Shown: one piece after another, positions 370-16,077 of the stretch
Numbering within the stretch: the stretch's first letter is position 1
How the letters are laid out: each line of letters begins with the position of its first letter
IMG/VR virus record: IMGVR_UViG_3300047493_000037
Span: 158,713 to 176,837 of that record
Length of the DNA stretch: 18,125 nt
DNA from: a virus
Taxonomy: Duplodnaviria; Heunggongvirae; Uroviricota; Caudoviricetes
Reading direction: 5' to 3' (one strand)
Made by a program: the position numbers and the translations under genes
The notes under the pieces: generated by a model
What the model was told of the DNA's origin: nothing
Seen by the model: the letters and a program-made list of their open reading frames with translations, nothing else
Databases searched by the model: none

Positions 370-420
370 AAATTGTGCCCCGATTTTCGTGGACTCGGGA
401 CCACATCCTAACCTTATTCG

Positions 421-491
421 CATATGGTGCTGGACTCGAACCAACATTACCGTAGTATAAGTACGGACTCTTACCATTAGATGAACCGCAA
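421..491 (-). tRNA. trnI: tRNA-Ile(UAU)-like element, possibly a pseudo-tRNA
   Basis: Perfect anticodon stem CCGTA/TACGG with loop CT-TAT-AC, T-arm GTTGG-TTCGAGT-CCAGC, and D-arm TCT-AATGGTA-AGA. The acceptor stem has only 5/7 pairs (TTGCGGT/ACCATAT) and no CCA at the normal position. Confidence 0.6.
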
Positions 492-1143: not shown

Positions 1144-1743
1144 TTACTCCTTATCAGAATAGTTGTACGTGTTGAAGAACCAGTCCCAGAGTGGAGATGT
1201 AACACCAAACTTACTCTGCTCATCTTTAAAGTGATGAAGCATATGCTGCTTCTTAAGGTACTTAAATATAAAGAACCTGGGATTAGTGAGGTGAGAAATG
1301 TAATGAACATATTCATACACCAAGAATCCCTCTAAGATCCCAGAACCAAAAGATAAAGTGTTGATAGCATTACCTAAAAACAAATAAAACACACCCATAG
1401 TGATCAAGTAAACAGGTAATGCTAGGATAACAGGAGCTGTAACGTACTTCTTATTTGAAGGTTGATCGTGATGAATTAGATGCAATCCAGAGTTGAATGG
1501 TTTCATTAAGTAATGCTCACTTTTAGAGTGAAACGAGAACCTATGAAGCATATACTCCATCAGCGTCCAGAAGAATATCCCTGCGCTAGACAAACCTAGT
1601 TGACAAAGCATAGAGGTTTGATGCGCATAGCCAATGTATCCGAGCTGTGCTACTAGAAGTGGCCCAAACAGCCAATAATGGACATTTGGACTGACATGTC
1701 CAAAATCTGGCGGAATCTTAGCAACAAGTCGACTCAACCTCAT
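1144..1743 (-). CDS. Fatty acid hydroxylase / sterol desaturase superfamily membrane di-metal enzyme (FA2H/Scs7-like)
   Basis: Four His boxes EYMLHRFSFH, HLIHH, YEYVHYISH and HMLHH, a C-terminal FGVTSPLWD motif, and hydrophobic segments. Confidence 0.93.
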   Translation of the reverse strand: MRLSRLVAKIPPDFGHVSPNVHYWLFGPLLVAQLGYIGYAHQTSMLCQLGLSSAGIFFWTLMEYMLHRFSFHSKSEHYLMKPFNSGLHLIHHDQPSNKKYVTAPVILALPVYLITMGVFYLFLGNAINTLSFGSGILEGFLVYEYVHYISHLTNPRFFIFKYLKKQHMLHHFKDEQSKFGVTSPLWDWFFNTYNYSDKE

Positions 1744-2403: not shown

Positions 2404-2527
2404 TGCGTCTTCTTACGTAAGAATCTATCTTGTTAATGTTGATATGAGCGATTGGCATATCGGGGCATAAAGTTTTTAACACGCTAATAAGTTTTACTGT
2501 GCTCAAACCAGGCGAACTCTTTATCAT
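2396..2527 (-). CDS. Leu-helix microprotein (43 aa; LISVLKTL)
   Basis: Manual translation. ATGA overlap with the upstream ORF. Confidence 0.55.
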   Translation of the reverse strand: MIKSSPGLSTVKLISVLKTLCPDMPIAHININKIDSYVRRRIK

Positions 2528-2691
2528 TCTTCTAATCTTTTCAAGTAACTCCATAAATAAGCTCTAAATCTAGCCTCTGTAGCAGAATTAATTACTTCTA
2601 AATCTCCTAACAAAATCACGAATGAGCGAGCTGCCCTAAACTTCCACTCTCTTCGCATCTTTCTAGCTTTACGTTTGTGGTTTCCACTCAT
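2524..2691 (-). CDS. Leu-helix microprotein (55 aa; FVILLGDLEV)
   Basis: Manual translation. ATGA overlaps at both ends. Confidence 0.65.
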   Translation of the reverse strand: MSGNHKRKARKMRREWKFRAARSFVILLGDLEVINSATEARFRAYLWSYLKRLEE

Positions 2692-2858
2692 ACTACTGAT
2701 ACATGCCGATGTACGTACTCTATCTCGTACGATGGTACACTATTTGGAAACGCTTCTTCCATGTAGTCAACGCTTGCTGTCTTCACGTTAAGCTTTTCTA
2801 AAAGATCTAACACTCCGTGAACAGCATATACCGCGACATTTAATTTAACATTTGGCAT
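2688..2858 (-). CDS. Leu-helix microprotein (56 aa; VLDLLEKLNV)
   Basis: Manual translation. Overlaps both neighbours. Confidence 0.65.
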   Translation of the reverse strand: MPNVKLNVAVYAVHGVLDLLEKLNVKTASVDYMEEAFPNSVPSYEIEYVHRHVSVV

Positions 2859-3072
2859 TAGGTTCTATATTTAGTTTATATAGCAATATAACCAACCTAG
2901 TATGCCTTATAACAAAAGTTTCTTTACAGGCTTCATGCTTGCATGGTTCTTTGTTGTCTAACGCAATGACCATACAAACCCAATCTCTATACCAACTTGT
3001 GACACCTTCAGCTTCAGTCCATTCACCTCCATATTCTATTTCTTTGCCGCAGTCTTCACAGATTATTCCCAT
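2845..3072 (-). CDS. Leu-helix microprotein with CxxC (75 aa; LVILLYKLNIEP)
   Basis: ORF track 2845..3078, with ATG at 3072. C-terminus resembles LAKLLYLLGIEP of 13176..13349. Confidence 0.7.
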   Translation of the reverse strand: MGIICEDCGKEIEYGGEWTEAEGVTSWYRDWVCMVIALDNKEPCKHEACKETFVIRHTRLVILLYKLNIEPNAKC

Positions 3073-3215
3073 TGCCACTTGCTTTTACCTATCTTTTTCA
3101 TGATTCTTTCTGCGTATTGATAAGCGCTAAAGCTATCCTTGTCGGCGCCTTTTACATTCAAGCGTATAAGAACCCTTATAAGGCAGCTTACTGAACTTAT
3201 TCTGCTTACAATCAT
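3063..3215 (-). CDS. Leu-helix microprotein (50 aa; LIRVLIRLNV)
   Basis: Manual translation. TAATG overlap with the upstream ORF. Confidence 0.6.
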   Translation of the reverse strand: MIVSRISSVSCLIRVLIRLNVKGADKDSFSAYQYAERIMKKIGKSKWQWE

Positions 3216-3385
3216 TAGTATAGATCATCTCTGCGCTTATATGAAGCTGAACAAGTGCCTAACAGGGCAGACAAAAGATAGCACAAACCTCTAAAAGATG
3301 GATCACGCGAATCGCTATACTTCTGTATCGGACCTTTAAAATACAAGCTATGAATAAGCACATCTACTTCTTCACGCAACCTCAT
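3215..3385 (-). CDS. Leu-helix microprotein, subfamily A (56 aa; LCYLLSALLGT)
   Basis: Manual translation MRLREEVDVLIHSLYF...GLCYLLSALLGTC. First gene after the composite element. Confidence 0.75.
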   Translation of the reverse strand: MRLREEVDVLIHSLYFKGPIQKYSDSRDPSFRGLCYLLSALLGTCSASYKRRDDLY

Positions 3386-3390
3386 ACAAA

Positions 3391-3442
3391 TATCTAGTAT
3401 CGGAATAAGGGTTGTAAGGGTACAGTCGGCGTAGCAGTATCG
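3391..3442 (-). promoter_or_regulatory. Composite element, copy 1 (diverged box plus ATYCCGA motif)
   Basis: Plus strand GGCGTAGCAGTATC at 3428, 21-nt spacer, then ATTCCGA-TAC-TAGATA on minus, 5 nt, ATG 3385. Confidence 0.65.
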
Positions 3443-3468
3443 TGCGGGGCGCGATCAACGTAGGTCGA

Positions 3469-3477
3469 TGATATTAT
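3469..3477 (+). promoter_or_regulatory. Extended -10 promoter for the peptidase
   Basis: TGa-TATTAT about 30 nt upstream of ATG 3509. Confidence 0.45.
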
Positions 3478-3508
3478 TCTTGATGGCACGAAGATGCTAG
3501 GAGCTGAT

Positions 3509-8588: not shown

Positions 8589-8768
8589 TCAATCAGTCTT
8601 ATTATCATATTCACTCCTCATTAAGGCTGCTATTTCTTGTCTCTCTATAAATGGGTCGATCTCTCGATCAGTAACCTTGTATTTGGTGGAACTTTTTATG
8701 TCGAGAGCAACGAGTAGATCTAATAGATAGCAACAACATAAAAATGGTCTATCTTCAACAACTCTCAT
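8589..8768 (-). CDS. Leu-helix microprotein (59 aa; YLLDLLVALDI)
   Basis: Manual translation. ATGA overlap. Confidence 0.65.
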   Translation of the reverse strand: MRVVEDRPFLCCCYLLDLLVALDIKSSTKYKVTDREIDPFIERQEIAALMRSEYDNKTD

Positions 8769-8944
8769 TGCTCACTTAATCTTATAGATAAATATATGTT
8801 CAGGAATGAGCGTCTGTGCCGCATTCTACGAGTAAAGTCACCTATGTCGCTATCATAGTGCTTATTACCACAACTATTTATTCCTAGGCAATACAAGACC
8901 CACGTTAGATCTATTGCGGACTGGTGATCAGGCTTTCTATCCAC
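8765..8944 (-). CDS. Leu-helix microprotein (59 aa; LTWVLYCLGI)
   Basis: Manual translation. GTG start overlaps the upstream stop. Confidence 0.55.
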   Translation of the reverse strand: MDRKPDHQSAIDLTWVLYCLGINSCGNKHYDSDIGDFTRRMRHRRSFLNIYLSIRLSEQ

Positions 8945-9116
8945 GACTCATTATCCTATCTACGAAGTCACCAATTGGTCTAGGATCGTGGTGGCGCTGC
9001 AAGACGTCGTCGGCAGATTGAATTCCTAAACTATTAAGAAGAGAAACTAATTTATCAGCAGATATAAGCATAACCCATTCACGTTCTCTAGAAAAGCAAG
9101 AATCATTATAATTCAT
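8937..9116 (-). CDS. Leu-helix microprotein (LVSLLNSLGI)
   Basis: ORF track gives 8937..9137 (GTG). ATG 9116 gives a smaller overlap. Confidence 0.65.
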   Translation of the reverse strand: MNYNDSCFSREREWVMLISADKLVSLLNSLGIQSADDVLQRHHDPRPIGDFVDRIMSRG

Positions 9117-9261
9117 ATTGATCCAGTATACTTTCACCTACAAGGGTTGATAGCATTCGCATAAGCTTACCATGAGATCTCCTCATCTCCTGAGTCCATG
9201 GAGTAGTAGGTGGAATTTCCATCCACTTTAACAAAAGTGTATCAAACTTTTCTCTAGTCAT
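9106..9261 (-). CDS. Leu-helix microprotein, subfamily A-like (51 aa; LMRMLSTLVG)
   Basis: Manual translation. ATGA overlap. Confidence 0.7.
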   Translation of the reverse strand: MTREKFDTLLLKWMEIPPTTPWTQEMRRSHGKLMRMLSTLVGESILDQYEL

Positions 9262-9431
9262 TTGATAGGTGATTCGAATTCAAAACCAACAAGTTTACCA
9301 ACTAGAACAACTAATAATAGTACATTAATTTTGCTCTTATTAGATAGCATTAACCATTGAGGATCATCGCCGTCGCGATTCCAGCGTTTAATTGCTTCAC
9401 GCAACTCCACATCTCTTCTCAACGCATCCAT
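9258..9431 (-). CDS. Leu-helix microprotein (57 aa; LVVLVGKLVG)
   Basis: Manual translation. First gene after composite element copy 2. Confidence 0.7.
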   Translation of the reverse strand: MDALRRDVELREAIKRWNRDGDDPQWLMLSNKSKINVLLLVVLVGKLVGFEFESPIK

Positions 9432-9436
9432 CAATT

Positions 9437-9493
9437 CTTATAAGATCGGGATTGGGGTAGTAGGTTGGCGTAGCAGTGTCAGTGCATGGTGCG
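9437..9493 (-). promoter_or_regulatory. Composite element, copy 2
   Basis: GGCGTAGCAGTGTCAG at 9467-9482 plus GCATGGTGCG at 9484. 14-nt spacer, ATCCCGA-TCT-TATAAG, 5 nt, ATG 9431. Confidence 0.75.
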
Positions 9494-9547
9494 GCCGATA
9501 AGCACAGCGAAATTAGTCTTATATTTCATATAGTTATAAATAATAAT

Positions 9548-9575
9548 GCAGACCCCAGGTTTCCCCAGGGTCTGC
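9548..9575 (-). terminator. Hairpin / probable terminator
   Basis: 12-bp stem GCAGACCCTGGG/CCTGGGGTCTGC with a GAAA loop, followed by ATTATTTATT. Confidence 0.7.
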
Positions 9576-10536: not shown

Positions 10537-11019
10537 TTACCCGACCAGGTGCTCGAGACCAGAAGCCTTGAGCAATGCGATCTGGTCCGCAGTGAGCTCT
10601 TTCTTCACAGCGGCAGGACGAAGTTCGGCAACGCGCTTGTCGATGAACGCCTGAATTTCAGCGCGCTCAGTCTTGTCCGTCTTCGTTGCGAGAAGAAGGC
10701 GCATCGCAGCGATCGACTCGTCCTTCGAGCCGGCGCGAGAGCCAGGGTTTTTAGCTTCGTACTTGACGTTGCCGTTCAAGCGTGGGTCTTTGCGCAGCCA
10801 GTTGGACTGCAAGCCGGAGACGTATGCCTTGAGCTTGGCATCGTCATATTGCTTGCTCGAATCGAGCTCGATCTTGCCTTCGCGAAAGCCTTCGAATAGG
10901 ATCTGGTTGACTGAAGCCCGCTGTTCCTTGGTAGGTTGGCAAGCTTCTTCGAAAGAGGTGACACCGAAAACACCGCAGAGAGCGGCAAAGACTGCATTCT
11001 TCTGATTCATTTGGCTCAT
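10537..11019 (-). CDS. GC-rich conserved hypothetical protein, paralog 1 (160 aa)
   Basis: GGAGG RBS before ATG 11019. Strong codon bias. 50/60 identical to 15470..15922 over the RKD..ELxP core. Confidence 0.9.
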   Translation of the reverse strand: MSQMNQKNAVFAALCGVFGVTSFEEACQPTKEQRASVNQILFEGFREGKIELDSSKQYDDAKLKAYVSGLQSNWLRKDPRLNGNVKYEAKNPGSRAGSKDESIAAMRLLLATKTDKTERAEIQAFIDKRVAELRPAAVKKELTADQIALLKASGLEHLVG

Positions 11020-11091
11020 GTATGTTCCTCCAAACATGATTTGTTACACACTTGATTAGTTTCAGAATTATTTCGTCACTAATCACTTACA

Positions 11092-11530: not shown

Positions 11531-11674
11531 CTATTCCTTTAAAACCCTATCAGTATAGTCACAAACCCTTACAACAGTTGCACCATCTTTCCAAGGTTTC
11601 ATGAGCTTAAATGTCTTTAGAAGATGAACAAGTCTCATAACGCTAGCGTCAATAATGTGTCTATCTTTCACCAT
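11531..11674 (-). CDS. Leu-helix microprotein (47 aa; LVHLLKTFKL)
   Basis: Manual translation. Overlaps the upstream stop. Confidence 0.65.
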   Translation of the reverse strand: MVKDRHIIDASVMRLVHLLKTFKLMKPWKDGATVVRVCDYTDRVLKE

Positions 11675-11829
11675 AAGGCTCTATCCCTAAATCTGTTTCT
11701 TCTTCTACCTATATAGCTAATAGCAAGGAGAGCTGTATCGGCAATATTAGTAGACTTTGTTAAGCTTAAACTAATCAAAAGACGTAACAATGAATATATC
11801 GAGTTATCGTGACTACTGGAATACTTCAT
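11668..11829 (-). CDS. Leu-helix microprotein (53 aa; LLRLLISLSL)
   Basis: Manual translation. ATGA overlap. Confidence 0.65.
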   Translation of the reverse strand: MKYSSSHDNSIYSLLRLLISLSLTKSTNIADTALLAISYIGRRRNRFRDRALW

Positions 11830-12002
11830 TTCCACGACTTCCTATATCTTTTGTTATAAGCATGATGATTGCCAAGATCATTCATGTCTTCAAAATCCAT
11901 CACATGTAGGTTATTCAGCAGCACCAATAGGTATGCAATAGGTTTACAAACGAACCCATCTACATCATGCTTATGCAGTATTATGTATTTTCTTCTCACC
12001 AT
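11826..12002 (-). CDS. Leu-helix microprotein (58 aa; LLVLLNNLHV)
   Basis: Manual translation. Overlaps both neighbours. Confidence 0.65.
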   Translation of the reverse strand: MVRRKYIILHKHDVDGFVCKPIAYLLVLLNNLHVMDFEDMNDLGNHHAYNKRYRKSWK

Positions 12003-12565: not shown

Positions 12566-12689
12566 TCTTTAGTTTCCTCACAGTGAAATTCCACGCATCC
12601 ATTCTTACAATGAATGGGTAGATTTTAAGTCGACCTATTAACTCTAACAACAATATAACAGATAAATATTCCTTATGAAAATCCTTCAT
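12549..12689 (-). CDS. Leu-helix microprotein (46 aa; LLELIGRLKI)
   Basis: Manual translation. Confidence 0.6.
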   Translation of the reverse strand: MKDFHKEYLSVILLLELIGRLKIYPFIVRMDAWNFTVRKLKIGKYK

Positions 12690-12714
12690 GAGTGCCTTCT
12701 TTGCAGCAAAGATG

Positions 12715-12873
12715 TCATAAATCGTAAAACTCGCCTGTTCCCAGAAGTGCGGATAACAACTCGAGCAATGCGATCACGCTATTATCATGCGCTTCCTGGC
12801 CCATACCCTTGCAAGTGGGATACCACTCGGTGCATAGTTTATCTAACAGAAAATCTATCTCTGCGTTAGTCAT
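12715..12873 (-). CDS. Leu-helix microprotein, subfamily A (52 aa; LLELLSALLGTGEF)
   Basis: ORF-track entry 12715..12903, with the start refined to ATG 12873. Confidence 0.8.
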   Translation of the reverse strand: MTNAEIDFLLDKLCTEWYPTCKGMGQEAHDNSVIALLELLSALLGTGEFYDL

Positions 12874-13042
12874 TACTTTTATGCCTAACATATCTATCAA
12901 CAAGTCCAGATATGTTCTCGTAATCTAGCGCGTCAACAGGTATGACTATATTCAAGCGCATTAGAAATCGCACTAGCGTTAGTAATTCGTGCTTAAGAAG
13001 AAACCTATTAATGCGCTGCTTAGGAGTTAAGTTGGTTTTCAT
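12866..13042 (-). CDS. Leu-helix microprotein (58 aa; LVRFLMRLNI)
   Basis: Manual translation. ATGA overlap. Confidence 0.65.
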   Translation of the reverse strand: MKTNLTPKQRINRFLLKHELLTLVRFLMRLNIVIPVDALDYENISGLVDRYVRHKSND

Positions 13043-13179
13043 ATGTTATAAAACCTCTTAGTGCCGATAAGCGCCGATAACAGCTCGCATAATGCGGTTA
13101 CGGCATATCGCTTGTCATCGTCGTCCTCATAACCAGCTTTTACCCAGAAATCCTTAACAATGTCTTCCCTAGTTTTCAT
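13039..13179 (-). CDS. Leu-helix microprotein, subfamily A (46 aa; LCELLSALIGTKRF)
   Basis: Manual translation. ATGA overlaps at both ends. Confidence 0.8.
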   Translation of the reverse strand: MKTREDIVKDFWVKAGYEDDDDKRYAVTALCELLSALIGTKRFYNI

Positions 13180-13349
13180 CCCTTTGGCTCTATTCCTAAC
13201 AAATACAGCAACTTAGCCAAATTGAACGCACCACCTCGCGCATCCTCGCTCGAACCTGCCACCCAATGTGCGTTCAACTTAGATATGAATCCGTCTTTCA
13301 CGTCATACCAAGTCTCTGCACAGTTCCACTTGTCAAGTCTGTACGTCAT
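13176..13349 (-). CDS. Leu-helix microprotein (57 aa; LAKLLYLLGIEP)
   Basis: ORF track, with the start refined to the ATGA overlap at 13349. Confidence 0.75.
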   Translation of the reverse strand: MTYRLDKWNCAETWYDVKDGFISKLNAHWVAGSSEDARGGAFNLAKLLYLLGIEPKG

Positions 13350-13594
13350 GGATCCCAAAAGTCGTTTCTCTTCCACACATCCACACTCAACTTAATGAGG
13401 AGTACCCCTAGCACTCGGGTAGTGCGGATATCTACCCACCAGCACCCGTTGCATCCACCTCGAGCGTATGGGTAGACATCCCTCTCCTTAAGCCTATTAG
13501 CCCACCTATACCAATCATGCCAAGGGGTGAAGTATGCACTCTTTGGATGCTGACGGTGCCTGTTATCTTTACACATTTTACATTCGGATGACAT
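13346..13594 (-). CDS. Leu-helix microprotein with two CxxC (82 aa; LGVLLIKLSV)
   Basis: ORF track 13346..13651. ATG 13594 preferred. CKMC and CNGC present. Confidence 0.65.
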   Translation of the reverse strand: MSSECKMCKDNRHRQHPKSAYFTPWHDWYRWANRLKERDVYPYARGGCNGCWWVDIRTTRVLGVLLIKLSVDVWKRNDFWDP

Positions 13595-13671
13595 ATAACT
13601 CGCTGATATGGTTAGGGCAAGGGGAGACAAACCTATCGATGGGCCGCCCACTCACTATACACTCACCTAAA

Positions 13672-13812
13672 TTAGAACTCTGCCGTGCCTATCAACTTAG
13701 ATAATAGCCTACATAAGCTAAACAATGCACCTGCGCGGTCCTGTCTACCCCTTATGGGGAGACGACAGTAGAGATAAATCAAGGATTGTCCTATATCATC
13801 TCTAGATCTCAC
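13672..13812 (-). CDS. Leu-helix microprotein, subfamily A (46 aa; LCRLLSKLIGTAEF)
   Basis: GTGA overlap start at 13812. Confidence 0.8.
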   Translation of the reverse strand: MRSRDDIGQSLIYLYCRLPIRGRQDRAGALFSLCRLLSKLIGTAEF

Positions 13813-13952
13813 AAGTTTATATCTCCTGTCCCTAGGAGGGAGGATAACAATCTTGCGAGACACCTCTCGGAGCGGCTCGCATACGGTGGCAGGTCGCTTC
13901 TAAAGAACCAGTAGAAGAGGAACTTGTCTACCTGCAGGGGAGATGGTCTCAT
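13809..13952 (-). CDS. Leu-helix microprotein, subfamily A (47 aa; LARLLSSLLGTGDI)
   Basis: Manual translation. 4-nt overlaps at both ends. Confidence 0.8.
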   Translation of the reverse strand: MRPSPLQVDKFLFYWFFRSDLPPYASRSERCLARLLSSLLGTGDINL

Positions 13953-14083
13953 ATGAATCTCCCATTAGATATGAGGATGGACAGGAGTTTGCACAGGTTA
14001 TACTTCGGGAGATACTGCCGACTGCTAGCCAACGGCATCACCTGGTAGTACCACTTGTGCAGCTGCCAATCAAGGTCCTTCAC
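13949..14083 (-). CDS. Leu-helix microprotein, subfamily A (44 aa; LCKLLSILISNGRF)
   Basis: Manual translation. 4-nt overlaps at both ends. Confidence 0.8.
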   Translation of the reverse strand: MKDLDWQLHKWYYQVMPLASSRQYLPKYNLCKLLSILISNGRFI

Positions 14084-14226
14084 TGGAATGCTCCGTTGCC
14101 TATAAATAGCGATAACAGCTCGCAAAGCTTGTGCTGAGCGACGTTCTTGCTCTCCCTATAGTTGGGTGTGTTGTTGTAAAACCACACGTCGAGCACTTCA
14201 TCTACCCGACTACGTCTCCCTGTCAT
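14080..14226 (-). CDS. Leu-helix microprotein, subfamily A (48 aa; LCELLSLFIGNGAF)
   Basis: ATG 14226 is the first codon after composite element copy 3. Confidence 0.8.
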   Translation of the reverse strand: MTGRRSRVDEVLDVWFYNNTPNYRESKNVAQHKLCELLSLFIGNGAFQ

Positions 14227-14231
14227 GTTGA

Positions 14232-14297
14232 TGTATATGATCGGGATAGGCCGATGGCGCACTGGCGGGGAGCTGGAGTGCGGCGTAGCAGTGTCAG
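14232..14297 (-). promoter_or_regulatory. Composite element, copy 3
   Basis: GGCGTAGCAGTGTCAG at 14282-14297. 34-nt spacer containing a CGCACT/AGTGCG inverted repeat. ATCCCGA-TCA-TATACA, 5 nt, ATG 14226. Confidence 0.75.
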
Positions 14298-14334
14298 CTA
14301 TAGCTAGGGCCACGCTCAGCGGGGAATAGGAGTT

Positions 14335-14401
14335 GGGAGGGATGGCCTGAGCCTATCCCTCCCTCTATGCAGCGTTGGTAACAGCTGACGTAACACGCTG
14401 C
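14335..14401. other. Two tandem hairpins after the 15209-14401 operon
   Basis: GGGAGGGAT/ATCCCTCCC with inner GGC/GCC (14335-14363), and GCAGCGT/ACGCTGC (14369-14401). No U-tract. Confidence 0.65.
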
Positions 14402-14562
14402 TAGGACTGAGTTGACTGTAGCTCGCAGAAATAACAGCGGCAATCCGCGCTCGGATTCTCTTTAATAGCTACAACATGGGAATGCTCTGGCATGGGGATA
14501 GATGCACCTTCCACAATCTCTTCGAACTGCTGCATCAAGTCTTTATCTGAGTGATAGCTCAT
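14401..14562 (-). CDS. Small protein with C-terminal CxCxxC (53 aa)
   Basis: Manual translation MSYHSDKDL...DCRCYFCE. ATGA overlap. Confidence 0.6.
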   Translation of the reverse strand: MSYHSDKDLMQQFEEIVEGASIPMPEHSHVVAIKENPSADCRCYFCELQSTQS

Positions 14563-14684
14563 TTGCCCCTCCGAGTCCAGTCGTCAAACTCCTTGTTAGC
14601 AATCCTCATGGCGTAGTTGTATCCGCACATGAATGCCACGAAGAGTGAGAATAGAATAGCAATCATTCCATAGGCATATGTCAT
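14559..14684 (-). CDS. Small single-pass membrane protein (41 aa)
   Basis: MTYAYGMIAILFSLFVAFMCGY. ATGA overlaps at both ends. Confidence 0.6.
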   Translation of the reverse strand: MTYAYGMIAILFSLFVAFMCGYNYAMRIANKEFDDWTRRGK

Positions 14685-14836
14685 GCAACTCTCCTCTTGG
14701 CTACGAAGTCCACATAGACTACATTATCAGGTGCTGGACCACTCCACTCATCCACAATATCGCCGTCATGAGTATAGCTGCTTGAGTAGCAACTGCAGTC
14801 GTCAGCGGCTTCATCGCAACGGATACAGTAGTCCAT
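14681..14836 (-). CDS. Small acidic Cys-rich protein (51 aa; CxxC...CxC)
   Basis: GGAGG RBS. MDYCIRCDEAADDCSCY. Confidence 0.7.
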   Translation of the reverse strand: MDYCIRCDEAADDCSCYSSSYTHDGDIVDEWSGPAPDNVVYVDFVAKRRVA

Positions 14837-14846
14837 ACGTCCTCCT

Positions 14847-15209
14847 TCAGTCAGTTTGCTCGAAGTGATTGATGAGATCAGTCTTAGTGAGATGATCTGC
14901 CCAGCAATAGAGTTTGCCGTCTATCGCTCTGAGGAGCGAGATTTCCACGTCGTAGTGAGTGACTTGACCAGTTACTGAGTTAGTCCAACTCTTCCTAGCC
15001 GCAAAGTCAACCACATTGTCCCCAAACTTCTCATGAGCGCACGTGATCACTGTCATGTATGGCTCCTCGCTACCATACACGTTTTCCAGGACAGACTCAT
15101 GTTCAGTATCTCTCAATTCCTCATCAGTGTAGTCAGAGTCAGCAAGCACAATCAAGAATTTATGACCTCTCATAGATCCTCCATAGATTCGGATAAAGTT
15201 GGTGGTCAT
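14847..15209 (-). CDS. Hypothetical acidic protein (120 aa)
   Basis: ORF track. Heads a coupled mini-operon downstream of composite element copy 4. Confidence 0.75.
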   Translation of the reverse strand: MTTNFIRIYGGSMRGHKFLIVLADSDYTDEELRDTEHESVLENVYGSEEPYMTVITCAHEKFGDNVVDFAARKSWTNSVTGQVTHYDVEISLLRAIDGKLYCWADHLTKTDLINHFEQTD

Positions 15210-15300
15210 TTTAGGCGTACACCACCATCCGCCGGATGTCAGACATGTGCTGACCCATAATTAAGGTATATAACCTCGTATTACTCGTTGGTGATGTATG

Positions 15301-15363
15301 TATATAGTGTCGGGATGGGGCAGGGTAGGCGTAGCAGTGTCAGTAGCCCCAAGGCATGGTGCG
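15301..15363 (-). promoter_or_regulatory. Composite element, copy 4
   Basis: GGCGTAGCAGTGTCAG at 15328-15343 and GCATGGTGCG at 15354. 11-nt spacer. ATCCCGA-CAC-TATATA. Confidence 0.75.
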
Positions 15364-15429
15364 TGCAGACTTGATGCGCAATCTCTGCAGTAGATAGAAC
15401 AGGTTGTATAGTTCAGTTGAGACTGTATT

Positions 15430-15456
15430 GGGAGGGAGACGTTGCATCTCCCTCCC
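15430..15456. terminator. Hairpin downstream of GC-rich paralog 2
   Basis: 10-bp perfect stem GGGAGGGAGA/TCTCCCTCCC, 13 nt after the stop. No U-tract on minus. Confidence 0.55.
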
Positions 15457-15469
15457 TTATACTTATCGA

Positions 15470-15922
15470 TCAGATCAGGTGAGCAAGACCCATCGTGCGC
15501 AGCTGCTCGATCTGCTCAGCAGTGAGTTCCTTCTTGGCGGGCTTGAGCTCGGCAACCCGCTTGTCGATGAAGGCTTGGATCTCGGCCTTCTCGCTCGGAT
15601 CGCTCTTGGTCGCGAGCAGCAACCGCATCGCTTCCACGCTCGCATCCTTCGACCCAGCACGAGACCCAGGATTCTTCGCCTCGTACTTCACGCCACCGTT
15701 GAGTCGCTTGTCCTTGCGCATGTGGTTGTTGACCAGACCCGGGATGTACTTCTTGATCCACTCAGCATCGCGATCGCCGCTCAGCTCGATCTTCCCACCC
15801 TCGAATCCCGCCTGCAAGATGCCGTACACTCGGGCTTTCTGCTCCTTGTCCAGCACGCACGCGCCTTCGAACTCGCCGACCACGTTCACAACTGCCTGAT
15901 AAACCGCATCGCTTTGTTTCAT
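15470..15922 (-). CDS. GC-rich conserved hypothetical protein, paralog 2 (150 aa)
   Basis: AAGGAG RBS. Strong codon bias. Homologous to 10537..11019. Confidence 0.9.
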   Translation of the reverse strand: MKQSDAVYQAVVNVVGEFEGACVLDKEQKARVYGILQAGFEGGKIELSGDRDAEWIKKYIPGLVNNHMRKDKRLNGGVKYEAKNPGSRAGSKDASVEAMRLLLATKSDPSEKAEIQAFIDKRVAELKPAKKELTAEQIEQLRTMGLAHLI

Positions 15923-15990
15923 ATTGCTCCTTAGTTTCAGTGTGTATGTATATCGTGATGAGATGTTGTATGTTCAGAATCAACCAACAG

Positions 15991-16077
15991 TTAGACAGTA
16001 GAATCAGCAACCAACTCGAACTCGCGCATCAACTCAAGTAACTCAGCATCGATGATTTCGATATTGTTTTCATTCAT
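15991..16077 (-). CDS. Possible 28-aa acidic peptide
   Basis: MNENNIEIIDAELLELMREFELVADSTV by manual translation: 8 acidic residues, 1 basic. Confidence 0.35.
   Translation of the reverse strand: MNENNIEIIDAELLELMREFELVADSTV

What the first reader, a model, noticed from the sequence alone, without database searches (positions are those of the whole stretch)
12715..14226. Subfamily A: constant two-helix scaffold with a hypervariable loop
Seen: 14080-14226, 13949-14083, 13809-13952, 13672-13812, 13039-13179, 12715-12873 and the distant 3215-3385 (more weakly 9106-9261) share a C-terminal L[CAL][EKRY]LLS[ALSIK][LF][LI]G[TN] helix. They also share an N-terminal D/E-x-x-L...W/F/Y helix-like segment. 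The roughly 12-20 aa between them is different in every copy (e.g. NNTPNYRESKNVAQ, RSDLPPYASRSE, KAGYEDDDDKRY). Four copies are in direct tandem. Inference: tandem duplication followed by loop diversification, resembling a natural binder scaffold under arms-race selection. No reverse transcriptase or template repeat is visible, so DGR-type mutagenesis is not supported here.
Basis: partly seen in the sequence, partly recalled or inferred. Interest (0 to 1): 0.75.

Follow-up and report, generated by a model that had tools for sequence, protein, structure and literature searches.

The report
Phage helical-hairpin microprotein paralog family
Eight tiny genes of a large uncultured soil/moss phage encode related 44-56-residue two-helix proteins in which only the second helix is kept constant. 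They are real genes of a new, narrowly distributed family. Nothing shows that their variable middle is driven by an arms race.

Summary
Eight minus-strand ORFs of 44-56 aa share a C-terminal helix motif (L-C-x-L-L-S-x-L-I-G-[NT]-G-x-F). They score 26-32 bits against a motif model, and the next best of 3061 six-frame ORFs scores 6 bits. Four copies sit head-to-tail with ATGA/GTGA overlaps.

The motif is kept at the protein level. Codon position 2 is 71% identical and position 3 is 30%, so these are translated genes and old paralogs, not a recent DNA repeat.

AlphaFold models of two copies both give a helical hairpin. The N-terminal helix is only weakly conserved in sequence.

The family is in no Pfam, PHROG, PADLOC or PDB entry. 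An exhaustive HMMER scan found only two outside homologues. One lies in a related phage fragment that has two copies at the apparently syntenic site, against four here. Three complete relatives lack the family.

The middle segment is diverged to saturation (pN 0.71, pS 0.76). That pattern fits neutral drift as well as it fits selection. It is unchanged between 99%-identical strains, and the genome has no reverse transcriptase.

Most likely these are promoter-proximal, translationally coupled accessory binder microproteins built on one shared packing or docking helix. Their function is inferred, not shown. This is a new but ordinary kind of phage ORFan family.

The parts
14080..14226 (-). Copy 1 (48 aa). 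First gene of the operon and first of the four tandem copies.
   Evidence: Translation. Motif model 31.1 bits. Leave-one-out E 1.4e-7. ATG lies 14 nt after a TATCCCGAT motif. Stop overlaps the next start as GTGA.
13949..14083 (-). Copy 2 (44 aa, GTG start).
   Evidence: 30.2 bits. Leave-one-out E 4.5e-3. The GTG start fits the family N-terminus. The source's gene call used an upstream TTG, giving 58 aa (P0002). A GGAG sequence inside the last codons of copy 1 lies 12 nt upstream.
13809..13952 (-). Copy 3 (47 aa).
   Evidence: 26.6 bits. Leave-one-out E 2.1e-3. AlphaFold model H5-18/H27-40, pLDDT 81.5, pTM 0.55. ATGA overlap with copy 2.
13672..13812 (-). Copy 4 (46 aa, GTG start). Last of the tandem block.
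   Evidence: 27.5 bits. Leave-one-out E 4.2e-5. GTGA overlap with copy 3. An 80-nt gap separates it from the next gene.
13039..13179 (-). Copy 5 (46 aa).
   Evidence: 32.2 bits. Leave-one-out E 4.5e-7. AlphaFold model H4-15/H20-38, pLDDT 73. Called as a gene by the source (P0003). ATGA overlaps on both sides.
12715..12873 (-). Copy 6 (52 aa).
   Evidence: 27.6 bits. Leave-one-out E 6.6e-7. 8-nt overlap with the upstream gene.
3215..3385 (-). Copy 7 (56 aa). A dispersed copy and the first gene of another microprotein operon.
   Evidence: 26.3 bits. Best leave-one-out E, 3e-9. ATG lies 17 nt after TATTCCGAT, and the upstream box is shared with the 14226 operon.
9106..9261 (-). Copy 8 (51 aa). 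A divergent dispersed copy and the second gene of a third operon.
   Evidence: 27.5 bits when included in the model, but leave-one-out E is 0.26 and the outside-only model gives E 0.02. Called as a gene by the source (P0001).
14227..14400 (-). Intergenic leader of the tandem operon: a stem-loop, a shared 16-nt box and an ATYCCGA motif.
   Evidence: Inverted repeat 14335-14363, read in the sequence as a 9-bp stem. The box and the ATYCCGA motif align with the regions upstream of 3385, 9434 and 15209. No sigma-70-type site stands out.
13346..13591 (-). Four-Cys (zinc-ribbon-like) gene with a C-terminal Leu helix, directly downstream of the tandem block. It is the synteny anchor and not a family member.
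   Evidence: Weak BLASTP match to L087 9551-9808 (29% identity over 83 aa, E 1e-3). It joins a 9-member CxxC...CxxC + Leu-helix alignment. In L087 the homologue also follows the two family members.
13176..13349 (-). 57-aa gene between copies 4 and 5 with a different C-terminal Leu helix. Not a family member.
   Evidence: ATGA overlaps on both sides. Not retrieved by any family model at E below 10.
12866..13042 (-). 58-aa gene between copies 5 and 6. Not a family member.
   Evidence: Translationally coupled on both sides. Not retrieved by the family models.

Best explanation
Subfamily A is a real, translated, fast-evolving family of 42-56-residue helical-hairpin microproteins. It is restricted to a few related uncultured phages.

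Shown:
- The eight copies are old paralogs. Selection holds only the second helix (L-C-x-L-L-S-x-L-I-G-[NT]-G-x-F) and, weakly, an amphipathic first helix that ends in an aromatic residue and a Pro.
- The linker and most surface positions have drifted to saturation.
- The genes sit near the head of operons of translationally coupled microprotein genes. They are first or second behind a phage-specific upstream box. The ribosome-binding site for the next gene is embedded in their last codons.
- They lie in an accessory region whose content differs between related phages.

Inferred:
- Helix 2 is hydrophobic on more than half its circumference. It also carries a near-invariant Ser and a Gly four residues apart, a small-xxx-small pair.
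- It is therefore likely to pack both against helix 1 and against a further helix. That further helix could belong to a second copy, giving a Rop-like four-helix bundle, or to a common host or phage partner.
- On this reading the proteins are small stoichiometric binders made during infection for host take-over or counter-defence. The constant helix is the shared core or docking element. The divergent remainder gives each paralog a different surface, or no special function at all.
For: Coding and selection:
- Motif codons are 48/71/30% identical at positions 1/2/3. Invariant Leu and Ser use many synonymous codons.
- pN/pS is 0.43 in helix 2, 0.77 in helix 1 and 0.93 in the middle.
- No DNA tandem repeat is present.

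Family is real.

Fold: two independent copies model as hairpins.

Conservation outside this genome: P0005 and P0006 (E 2.6e-7 and 1.4e-4 against 1.84 billion proteins) and a second copy in L087 keep the same architecture.

Operon anatomy: ATGA/GTGA junctions and GGAG/GGGAG/AGGAG inside the Gly-x-Gly codons. The upstream box is shared by four operons.

Accessory character:
- The family is absent from three complete relatives and about 24 partial ones.
- There are two copies at the apparently syntenic site in L087 against four here.

Residue pattern: near-invariant Ser and Gly at i and i+4, with hydrophobic residues at four of seven heptad positions. This is read from alignment A3.
Against: - There are no expression data, and only 3 of the 8 copies were called as genes by the source.
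- Models rest on 8-sequence alignments, with pTM 0.37-0.55.
- Fold searches give only generic hairpin matches (best Z 3.9), so they offer no functional analogue.
- Oligomerisation or partner binding is untested. Hydrophobic moments of helix 2 (0.24-0.65) are not clearly above those of shuffled sequence (mean 0.29, 95th percentile 0.56).
- Expression timing (early or late) is unknown.
- The synteny anchor between L087 and the window is weak (E 1e-3).
Confidence: 0.6

Rival explanations
1. A constant two-helix scaffold displays a loop that is actively diversified by positive selection, forming a natural binder library in an arms race with host defences. Tandem copy number expands and contracts like a gene accordion.
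For: - The middle differs completely in all 11 known members while helix 2 is kept.
- Copy number at the apparently syntenic site is 2 in one phage and 4 in the other.
- Distribution among relatives is patchy.
- The middle is polar and rich in Asp, Tyr, Ser, Thr and Pro.
- The hairpin fold is consistent between the two modelled copies.
Against: - pN in the middle (0.705) does not exceed the saturated pS (0.76). The result is indistinguishable from neutral drift.
- Helix 1 is almost as variable, so the 'scaffold' is not constant in sequence.
- The paralogs are ancient, and tandem neighbours are not each other's closest kin.
- No change is seen in the N-part and loop between strains about 99% identical.
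- No orthologous pairs are close enough for a dN/dS test.
Confidence: 0.15
2. The constant helix is a portable docking module that Subfamily A shares with the roughly 40 other Leu-helix microproteins and with the zinc-ribbon proteins of the same operons. All would plug into one hub protein, and Subfamily A would be a truncated offshoot of the main family.
For: - The genes share operons, sizes and coupling with the other families.
- hhalign places helix 2 of Subfamily A on the Leu helix of the main family in the expected register, including the preceding Ser (P 0.0095; P 0.014 for P0005 alone).
- The zinc-ribbon family's C-terminal helix matches the main-family helix better (P 2e-4, probability 46%).
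Against: - hhalign probability is only 3-4% for Subfamily A against the main family. Against the zinc-ribbon family P is 0.2.
- A motif model built from the relative L001 does not score the eight copies (ranks 110-1414).
- The second conserved element of the main family is absent from Subfamily A.
- No hub protein has been identified.
Confidence: 0.15
3. The ORFs are not functional proteins. On this view the shared element is a nucleic-acid signal, such as a ribosome-binding site, an RNA structure or a repeated regulatory site. Or the ORFs are decaying duplicates.
For: - Shine-Dalgarno-like sequences for the next gene lie inside the conserved Gly-x-Gly codons.
- Five of the eight copies were not called as genes by the source.
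- A 28-nt DNA repeat family covers the motif.
Against: - Conservation peaks at codon position 2 and is near random at position 3. That is the signature of protein-level selection, not DNA or RNA selection.
- The DNA repeat is only 62-82% identical.
- The motif is always in frame, near the end of a 42-56-aa ORF on the operon strand.
- It is kept in other phages with different nucleotides.
- The ribosome-binding overlap explains at most the last two or three motif positions.
Confidence: 0.05
4. They are precursor peptides of a modified natural product (RiPP-like), with conserved recognition flanks around a hypervariable core.
For: They are short, have conserved ends and a variable middle, and occur as multiple tandem precursor-like genes.
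Against: - No radical-SAM enzyme is found in the genome.
- No Pfam or PHROG enzyme hit appears among the neighbours.
- The conserved parts are predicted helices that pack on each other.
- There is no export signal.
Confidence: 0.03

Closest known systems
GIL01 gp7 (a roughly 50-aa tectivirus protein that binds host LexA; PMC4551915; PDB 6n7o)
   Same: A phage-encoded helical microprotein of about the same size that acts purely by binding another protein. 6n7o appears among the structural matches to the model (Z 3.2, 36 residues aligned).
   Different: There is no sequence similarity (8% identity). The Z score is tied with hundreds of generic hairpins. gp7 is single-copy in a temperate phage and is not part of a paralog array. 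No LexA link is seen here.
SPO1 host-takeover module (a cluster of about 26 small early genes; PMC6873191)
   Same: A block of many small genes in short operons with their own promoters. Their products each bind and modulate a cellular target. It lies in an accessory part of a large phage genome.
   Different: The SPO1 genes are not paralogs of one another and are mostly larger. Early timing is established for SPO1 but unknown here. There is no sequence relation.
Rop/Rom of ColE1 (helical hairpin that dimerises into a four-helix bundle; cited from general knowledge)
   Same: A protein of about 60 residues consisting of two antiparallel helices and a short turn. It is stable only as a dimer through a Leu/Ala-rich core with small residues at the crossing.
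   Different: There is no sequence similarity, and Rop is not among the listed fold matches. Dimerisation of Subfamily A is only inferred. Rop binds RNA, and nothing suggests that here.
Diversity-generating retroelement target proteins
   Same: A constant framework with a localised variable patch, found in a phage.
   Different: There is no reverse transcriptase in the genome and no template/variable repeat pair. The variation is between ancient paralogs, not between alleles. The patch is unchanged between near-identical strains.
The co-resident Leu-helix microprotein family of this phage clade (alignment A4; at least 23 tandem genes in L087)
   Same: Same operons, same size range and same translational coupling. 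It has a Leu-rich helix of the same register, preceded by Ser.
   Different: In that family the helix lies in the N-terminal half and is followed by a second conserved element that Subfamily A lacks. Homology is not statistically established (hhalign probability 4%).

Membership tests
Diversity-generating retroelement (DGR) variable gene | A reverse transcriptase encoded nearby or in the same genome. | tested here: not met
   PF00078 was searched over the whole 176.8-kb record with no match. The control genomes did give matches.
Diversity-generating retroelement (DGR) variable gene | A template repeat nearly identical to the variable region. | tested here: not met
   The only direct repeats in 12600-14400 are 15-29 nt at 62-87% identity, and they cover the conserved motif rather than the variable part. 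Tandem Repeats Finder found none.
Main Leu-helix microprotein family of this phage clade (A4) | A Leu-rich helix of the L-L-x-L-L-x-x-L-G-I type. | tested here: inconclusive
   hhalign aligns the helices in register, but with P 0.0095 and probability 4%. A motif model from relative L001 does not score the copies.
Main Leu-helix microprotein family of this phage clade (A4) | A second conserved element (aromatic-x-x-R-M-G) about 15 residues after the helix. | tested here: not met
   Subfamily A proteins end 3-12 residues after the helix, with no such element.
Rop-like helical hairpin | Two antiparallel helices joined by a short turn. | tested here: met
   AlphaFold models of two copies: H4-15/H20-38 and H5-18/H27-40. 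This is a prediction only, with pTM 0.37-0.55.
Rop-like helical hairpin | Obligate dimer forming a four-helix bundle. | not testable with these tools
   No multimer prediction or experiment is available. It is inferred only from the broad hydrophobic face and the Ser/Gly i,i+4 pair in A3.
GIL01 gp7-like host-factor binders | Sequence or specific structural similarity to gp7. | tested here: inconclusive
   6n7o_A matches at Z 3.2, rmsd 2.1 over 36 residues and 8% identity. That is tied with many unrelated hairpins. No sequence hit was found in the PDB.
RiPP precursor peptides | A dedicated modifying enzyme encoded beside the precursors. | tested here: not met
   No radical-SAM match in the genome. 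Neighbouring genes have no enzyme-family hits. Other RiPP enzyme classes were not searched one by one.
Any curated protein family (Pfam, PHROGs, PADLOC, PDB sequences) | A significant profile match. | tested here: not met
   No family matched at E up to 0.1-1. The best PDB sequence hit has E 0.55.

The most novel reading that the evidence does not exclude
Subfamily A is one arm of a phage-encoded adaptor repertoire. Dozens of microproteins would all carry the same Leu helix: Subfamily A, the main Leu-helix family and the zinc-ribbon family. That helix would plug into a single hub protein of the host or phage. Their unrelated remainders would recruit or block different targets. Tandem copy number (2 in one phage, 4 here) would be tuned by selection. 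This would amount to a natural hub-and-adaptor or binder library in a virus of bacteria.
Probability: 0.1. Interest if true: 0.75.

Novelty: new member of a known kind. Interest (0 to 1): 0.35.

Why it matters
Large phages carry many unannotated microprotein genes, and gene callers miss most of them. Here 5 of the 8 copies were missed. This case shows that such ORFs can be proven to be coding from paralog codon patterns alone. It defines a new family with a 14-residue signature that can be searched for.

The family is a compact, tractable candidate for the small-binder class of phage host-modulating proteins. If the shared helix proves to be a common docking element, the arrays would be a natural adaptor set worth studying. 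If not, it is one more fast-evolving phage ORFan family.

Tried and rejected
- Megablast of the locus and tblastn of the 904-aa neighbour against GenBank phages found nothing.
- The search for related loci failed with alignment A1 because no stretch was conserved enough. It found nothing with the 904-aa tail-like protein or with copy 3215-3385.
- The metagenome scan with the 120-aa upstream neighbour gave one distant hit only.
- A degenerate DNA pattern for the motif found nothing in IMG/VR.
- The word-indexed protein search with A1 and A3 returned only own-contig proteins plus P0005 and P0006.
- The 2373-aa hit P0004 is an artefact. It is an unrelated repeat protein in which 17 near-identical 20-mers score about 3 bits each.
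- The ESM Atlas gave no usable lead.
- Foldseek against PDB and BFVD, and VIA-align wide, gave only generic hairpins.
- Iterative HMM search at E 1e-3 did not grow the family beyond the eight copies. ORF 11668-11835 and genome ORF 125-331 stay borderline (E 1e-3 to 5e-2).
- I tried to show that Subfamily A belongs to the wider Leu-helix superfamily. This was not established.
- Amber read-through was considered, because the genome has a tRNA with a CTA anticodon. It is irrelevant here: the eight copies end in TGA or TAA.
- The sigma-70 promoter and terminator scan was no better than shuffled sequence.
- Hydrophobic-moment analysis was uninformative.
Full report
SETTING

The window is the last 18.1 kb of a 176,837-bp IMG/VR virus record that CheckV rates as complete. 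The record has a terminase and a portal and 28 tRNA genes, one of which has a CTA (amber-reading) anticodon. More than 80 IMG/VR contigs carry a terminase 50-88% identical to this one. Three of the related records are complete genomes of about 175 kb (G001, G002, G014).

Yes.

- An 18-column model of the C-terminal motif scores the eight ORFs at 26.3-32.2 bits. The next best of all 3061 six-frame ORFs of the genome scores 6.2 bits.
- In leave-one-out tests, seven copies return as the best non-training ORF (E 3e-9 to 4.5e-3).
- A model built only from three homologues found outside this genome ranks seven window copies as the top seven ORFs of the genome (E 4e-8 to 0.02). Copy 13809 comes tenth.
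- The four copies at 13672-14226 abut with GTGA, ATGA and GTGA overlaps.

ARE THEY GENES?

The motif is conserved as protein, not as DNA. Across the 13 motif codons, pairwise identity is 48%, 71% and 30% at codon positions 1, 2 and 3. The invariant Leu and Ser positions use many synonymous codons.

Tandem Repeats Finder sees no repeat. The only DNA repeat is a 28-nt stretch over the motif at 62-82% identity. This is strong evidence of translation and purifying selection, although the source's gene caller reported only three of the eight.

HOW OLD ARE THE COPIES, AND HOW CONSTRAINED?

Nei-Gojobori proportions among the eight copies are as follows.

| Segment | pS | pN |
|---|---|---|
| N-terminal segment | 0.72 | 0.55 |
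| Middle | 0.76 | 0.705 |
| Helix 2 | 0.83 | 0.35 |

Synonymous sites are saturated, so these are old duplicates. Pairwise protein identity is 14-38%, and tandem neighbours are no closer to each other than to the dispersed copies.

The middle has reached the level expected for unconstrained sequence. It is 'different in every copy', but that is what neutral saturation produces, and no excess of replacement can be demonstrated.

The N-terminal helix is only weakly constrained. On its own it is not significant for any copy. The 11-sequence alignment does show a recurring pattern of an acidic-hydrophobic stretch, an aromatic residue and then Pro, with a Ser four residues before helix 2.

FOLD

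AlphaFold2 with the 8-sequence alignment gives a helical hairpin for both copies tested.

- Copy 13039-13179: H4-15 and H20-38, pLDDT 73, pTM 0.37.
- Copy 13809-13952: H5-18 and H27-40, pLDDT 81.5, pTM 0.55.

Part of the 'loop' is modelled as the start of helix 2 in one copy. Structure searches return only generic hairpins (best Z 3.9).

DISTRIBUTION

- Pfam, PHROGs, PADLOC and PDB sequences give nothing.
- An exhaustive HMMER scan of 1.84 billion representative proteins found two outside homologues. P0005 is 53 aa (E 2.6e-7). P0006 is 64 aa (E 1.4e-4). The scan also returned a repeat-protein artefact.
- P0005 lies on an 11.9-kb JGI contig (L087). That contig is a fragment of a related phage, whose copy of the 166-aa flanking protein is 53-62% identical to the window's.
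- L087 holds a second, uncalled family member at 9422-9550.
- The two L087 copies are separated by one gene of another family. They lie directly upstream of a four-Cys gene that weakly matches window gene 13346-13651 (E 1e-3), which directly follows the four tandem copies here. The site therefore looks syntenic, with two copies in L087 against four in the window.
- No window copy is more than 39% identical to an L087 copy over its full length.
- The family is absent from the three complete relatives and about 24 partial ones.
- No closer relative could be recovered, so the proposed orthologue dN/dS test cannot be done.
- Three further assemblies about 99% identical to L087 exist. In two of them the first 41 and 35 residues of the P0005 orthologue, which include the linker, are unchanged. 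About one change was expected, so this is weak evidence. It does argue against allele-level hypermutation.

ANATOMY

The tandem block heads a chain of about 20 coupled minus-strand genes running from 14226 down to 11092.

Upstream lie a stem-loop, a 16-nt box and an ATYCCGA motif. These align with the regions upstream of three other operons. Family members are the first gene in two of these operons (14226, 3385) and the second gene in a third (9261).

Where a coupled gene follows, GGAG, GGGAG, AGGAG or AAGAGG lies inside the codons just after the I-G-[NT] of the motif. The same holds in L087. The last two or three motif positions may therefore carry a double constraint, coding for the protein and serving as a ribosome-binding site.

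None of the copies ends in TAG, so the amber-reading tRNA does not alter them.

RELATION TO THE OTHER MICROPROTEINS

L087 and the window carry a larger family (alignment A4, 29 sequences) with a Leu helix in the N-terminal half and a second conserved element. They also carry a four-Cys family that ends in a similar helix (A5).

- A5 and A4 align helix to helix with P 2e-4.
- Subfamily A aligns to A4 in the expected register, but only at P 0.0095 and probability 4%.
- Subfamily A does not align to A5.
- A motif model from relative L001 does not score the eight copies.

Common origin is possible but unproven.

MECHANISM (INFERENCE)

In alignment A3, helix 2 is hydrophobic at four of seven heptad positions. 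It also has a near-invariant Ser and a Gly four residues apart. This pattern suits a helix that packs on two sides: against helix 1, and against another helix from a second copy or from a partner protein.

A 45-residue hairpin is unlikely to be stable alone. I therefore favour the following reading:

- The proteins are small stoichiometric binders made from promoter-proximal genes during infection.
- The constant helix serves as a shared core or docking element.
- The remainder is free to diverge.

Whether that divergence is adaptive is open.

COMPARISON AND VERDICT

The closest analogues are functional, not homologous. They are phage helical microproteins such as GIL01 gp7 (PMC4551915), blocks of small host-modulating genes such as the SPO1 host-takeover module (PMC6873191), and Rop-type hairpin dimers (cited from general knowledge).

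The family itself is new to the databases and narrowly distributed. Fast-evolving small-protein paralog families in accessory regions are, however, a familiar feature of large phages.

- Interest is moderate to low.

Earlier notes of this scan had already flagged the surrounding microprotein arrays and the upstream box on this same window.

Noticed in passing
L087:5997-11578 (+); window 8589-9137, 2524-3215 (-): A larger microprotein family (alignment A4). It comprises at least 23 head-to-tail genes of 37-76 aa in L087 and at least 6 in the window. Members have a Leu-rich helix followed about 15 residues later by a second conserved element. No Pfam or PHROG family matches. The best PDB sequence hit is the HTH region of an Rgg regulator, at E 0.45 only.
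   Followed up: partly
window 13346-13591, 2845-3078 (-); L087 8717-8995, 9551-10261, 10561-10809; L002 12065-12548: A CxxC...CxxC (zinc-ribbon-like) family of 73-97 aa whose C-terminus is a Leu helix. That helix aligns with the helix of the main microprotein family (hhalign P 2e-4, probability 46%).
   Followed up: partly
window 14215-14345, 3374-3500, 9423-9550, 15200-15400 (-): Four operon leaders share a 16-nt box, a variable spacer and an ATYCCGA..TA.A motif shortly before the first start codon. No sigma-70-like site stands out. This is possibly a phage-specific promoter.
   Followed up: partly
window 10537-11037 and 15470-15922 (-): Two paralogs of a 150-166-aa protein of unknown function bracket the array. 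Relatives carry two or three copies each (L001, L002, L087), 37-66% identical to the window's. No family match.
   Followed up: partly
L087:9422-9808 (+): The second Subfamily A gene of L087 is separated from the following four-Cys ORF by a single in-frame TGA. That ORF has no start codon of its own before its first CxxC. Possible explanations are read-through, a fusion ancestor, a sequencing error or a decaying gene.
   Followed up: no
window 13500-16000: This stretch is GC-rich, about 0.50 against 0.428 for the genome. The first three tandem copies have GC3 of 0.61-0.71, against a mean of 0.38 (sd 0.10) for 45 large genes. The dispersed copies match their own AT-richer surroundings.
   Followed up: no
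genome 41373-41448 (+); window 420-491 (-): ARAGORN finds a tRNA with a CTA (amber-reading) anticodon far upstream in the genome. It also finds a tRNA-Ile (TAT anticodon) inside the window.
   Followed up: no
window 11668-11835 (-); genome 125-331 (+): Two further small ORFs are borderline matches to the Subfamily A model (E 1e-3 to 5e-2). They may be very divergent members or may belong to the wider Leu-helix set.
   Followed up: partly
window 1144-1743 (-): A 199-aa ORF matches the fatty-acid hydroxylase family (PF04116, E 1e-16). This is an unusual enzyme for a phage accessory region.
   Followed up: no
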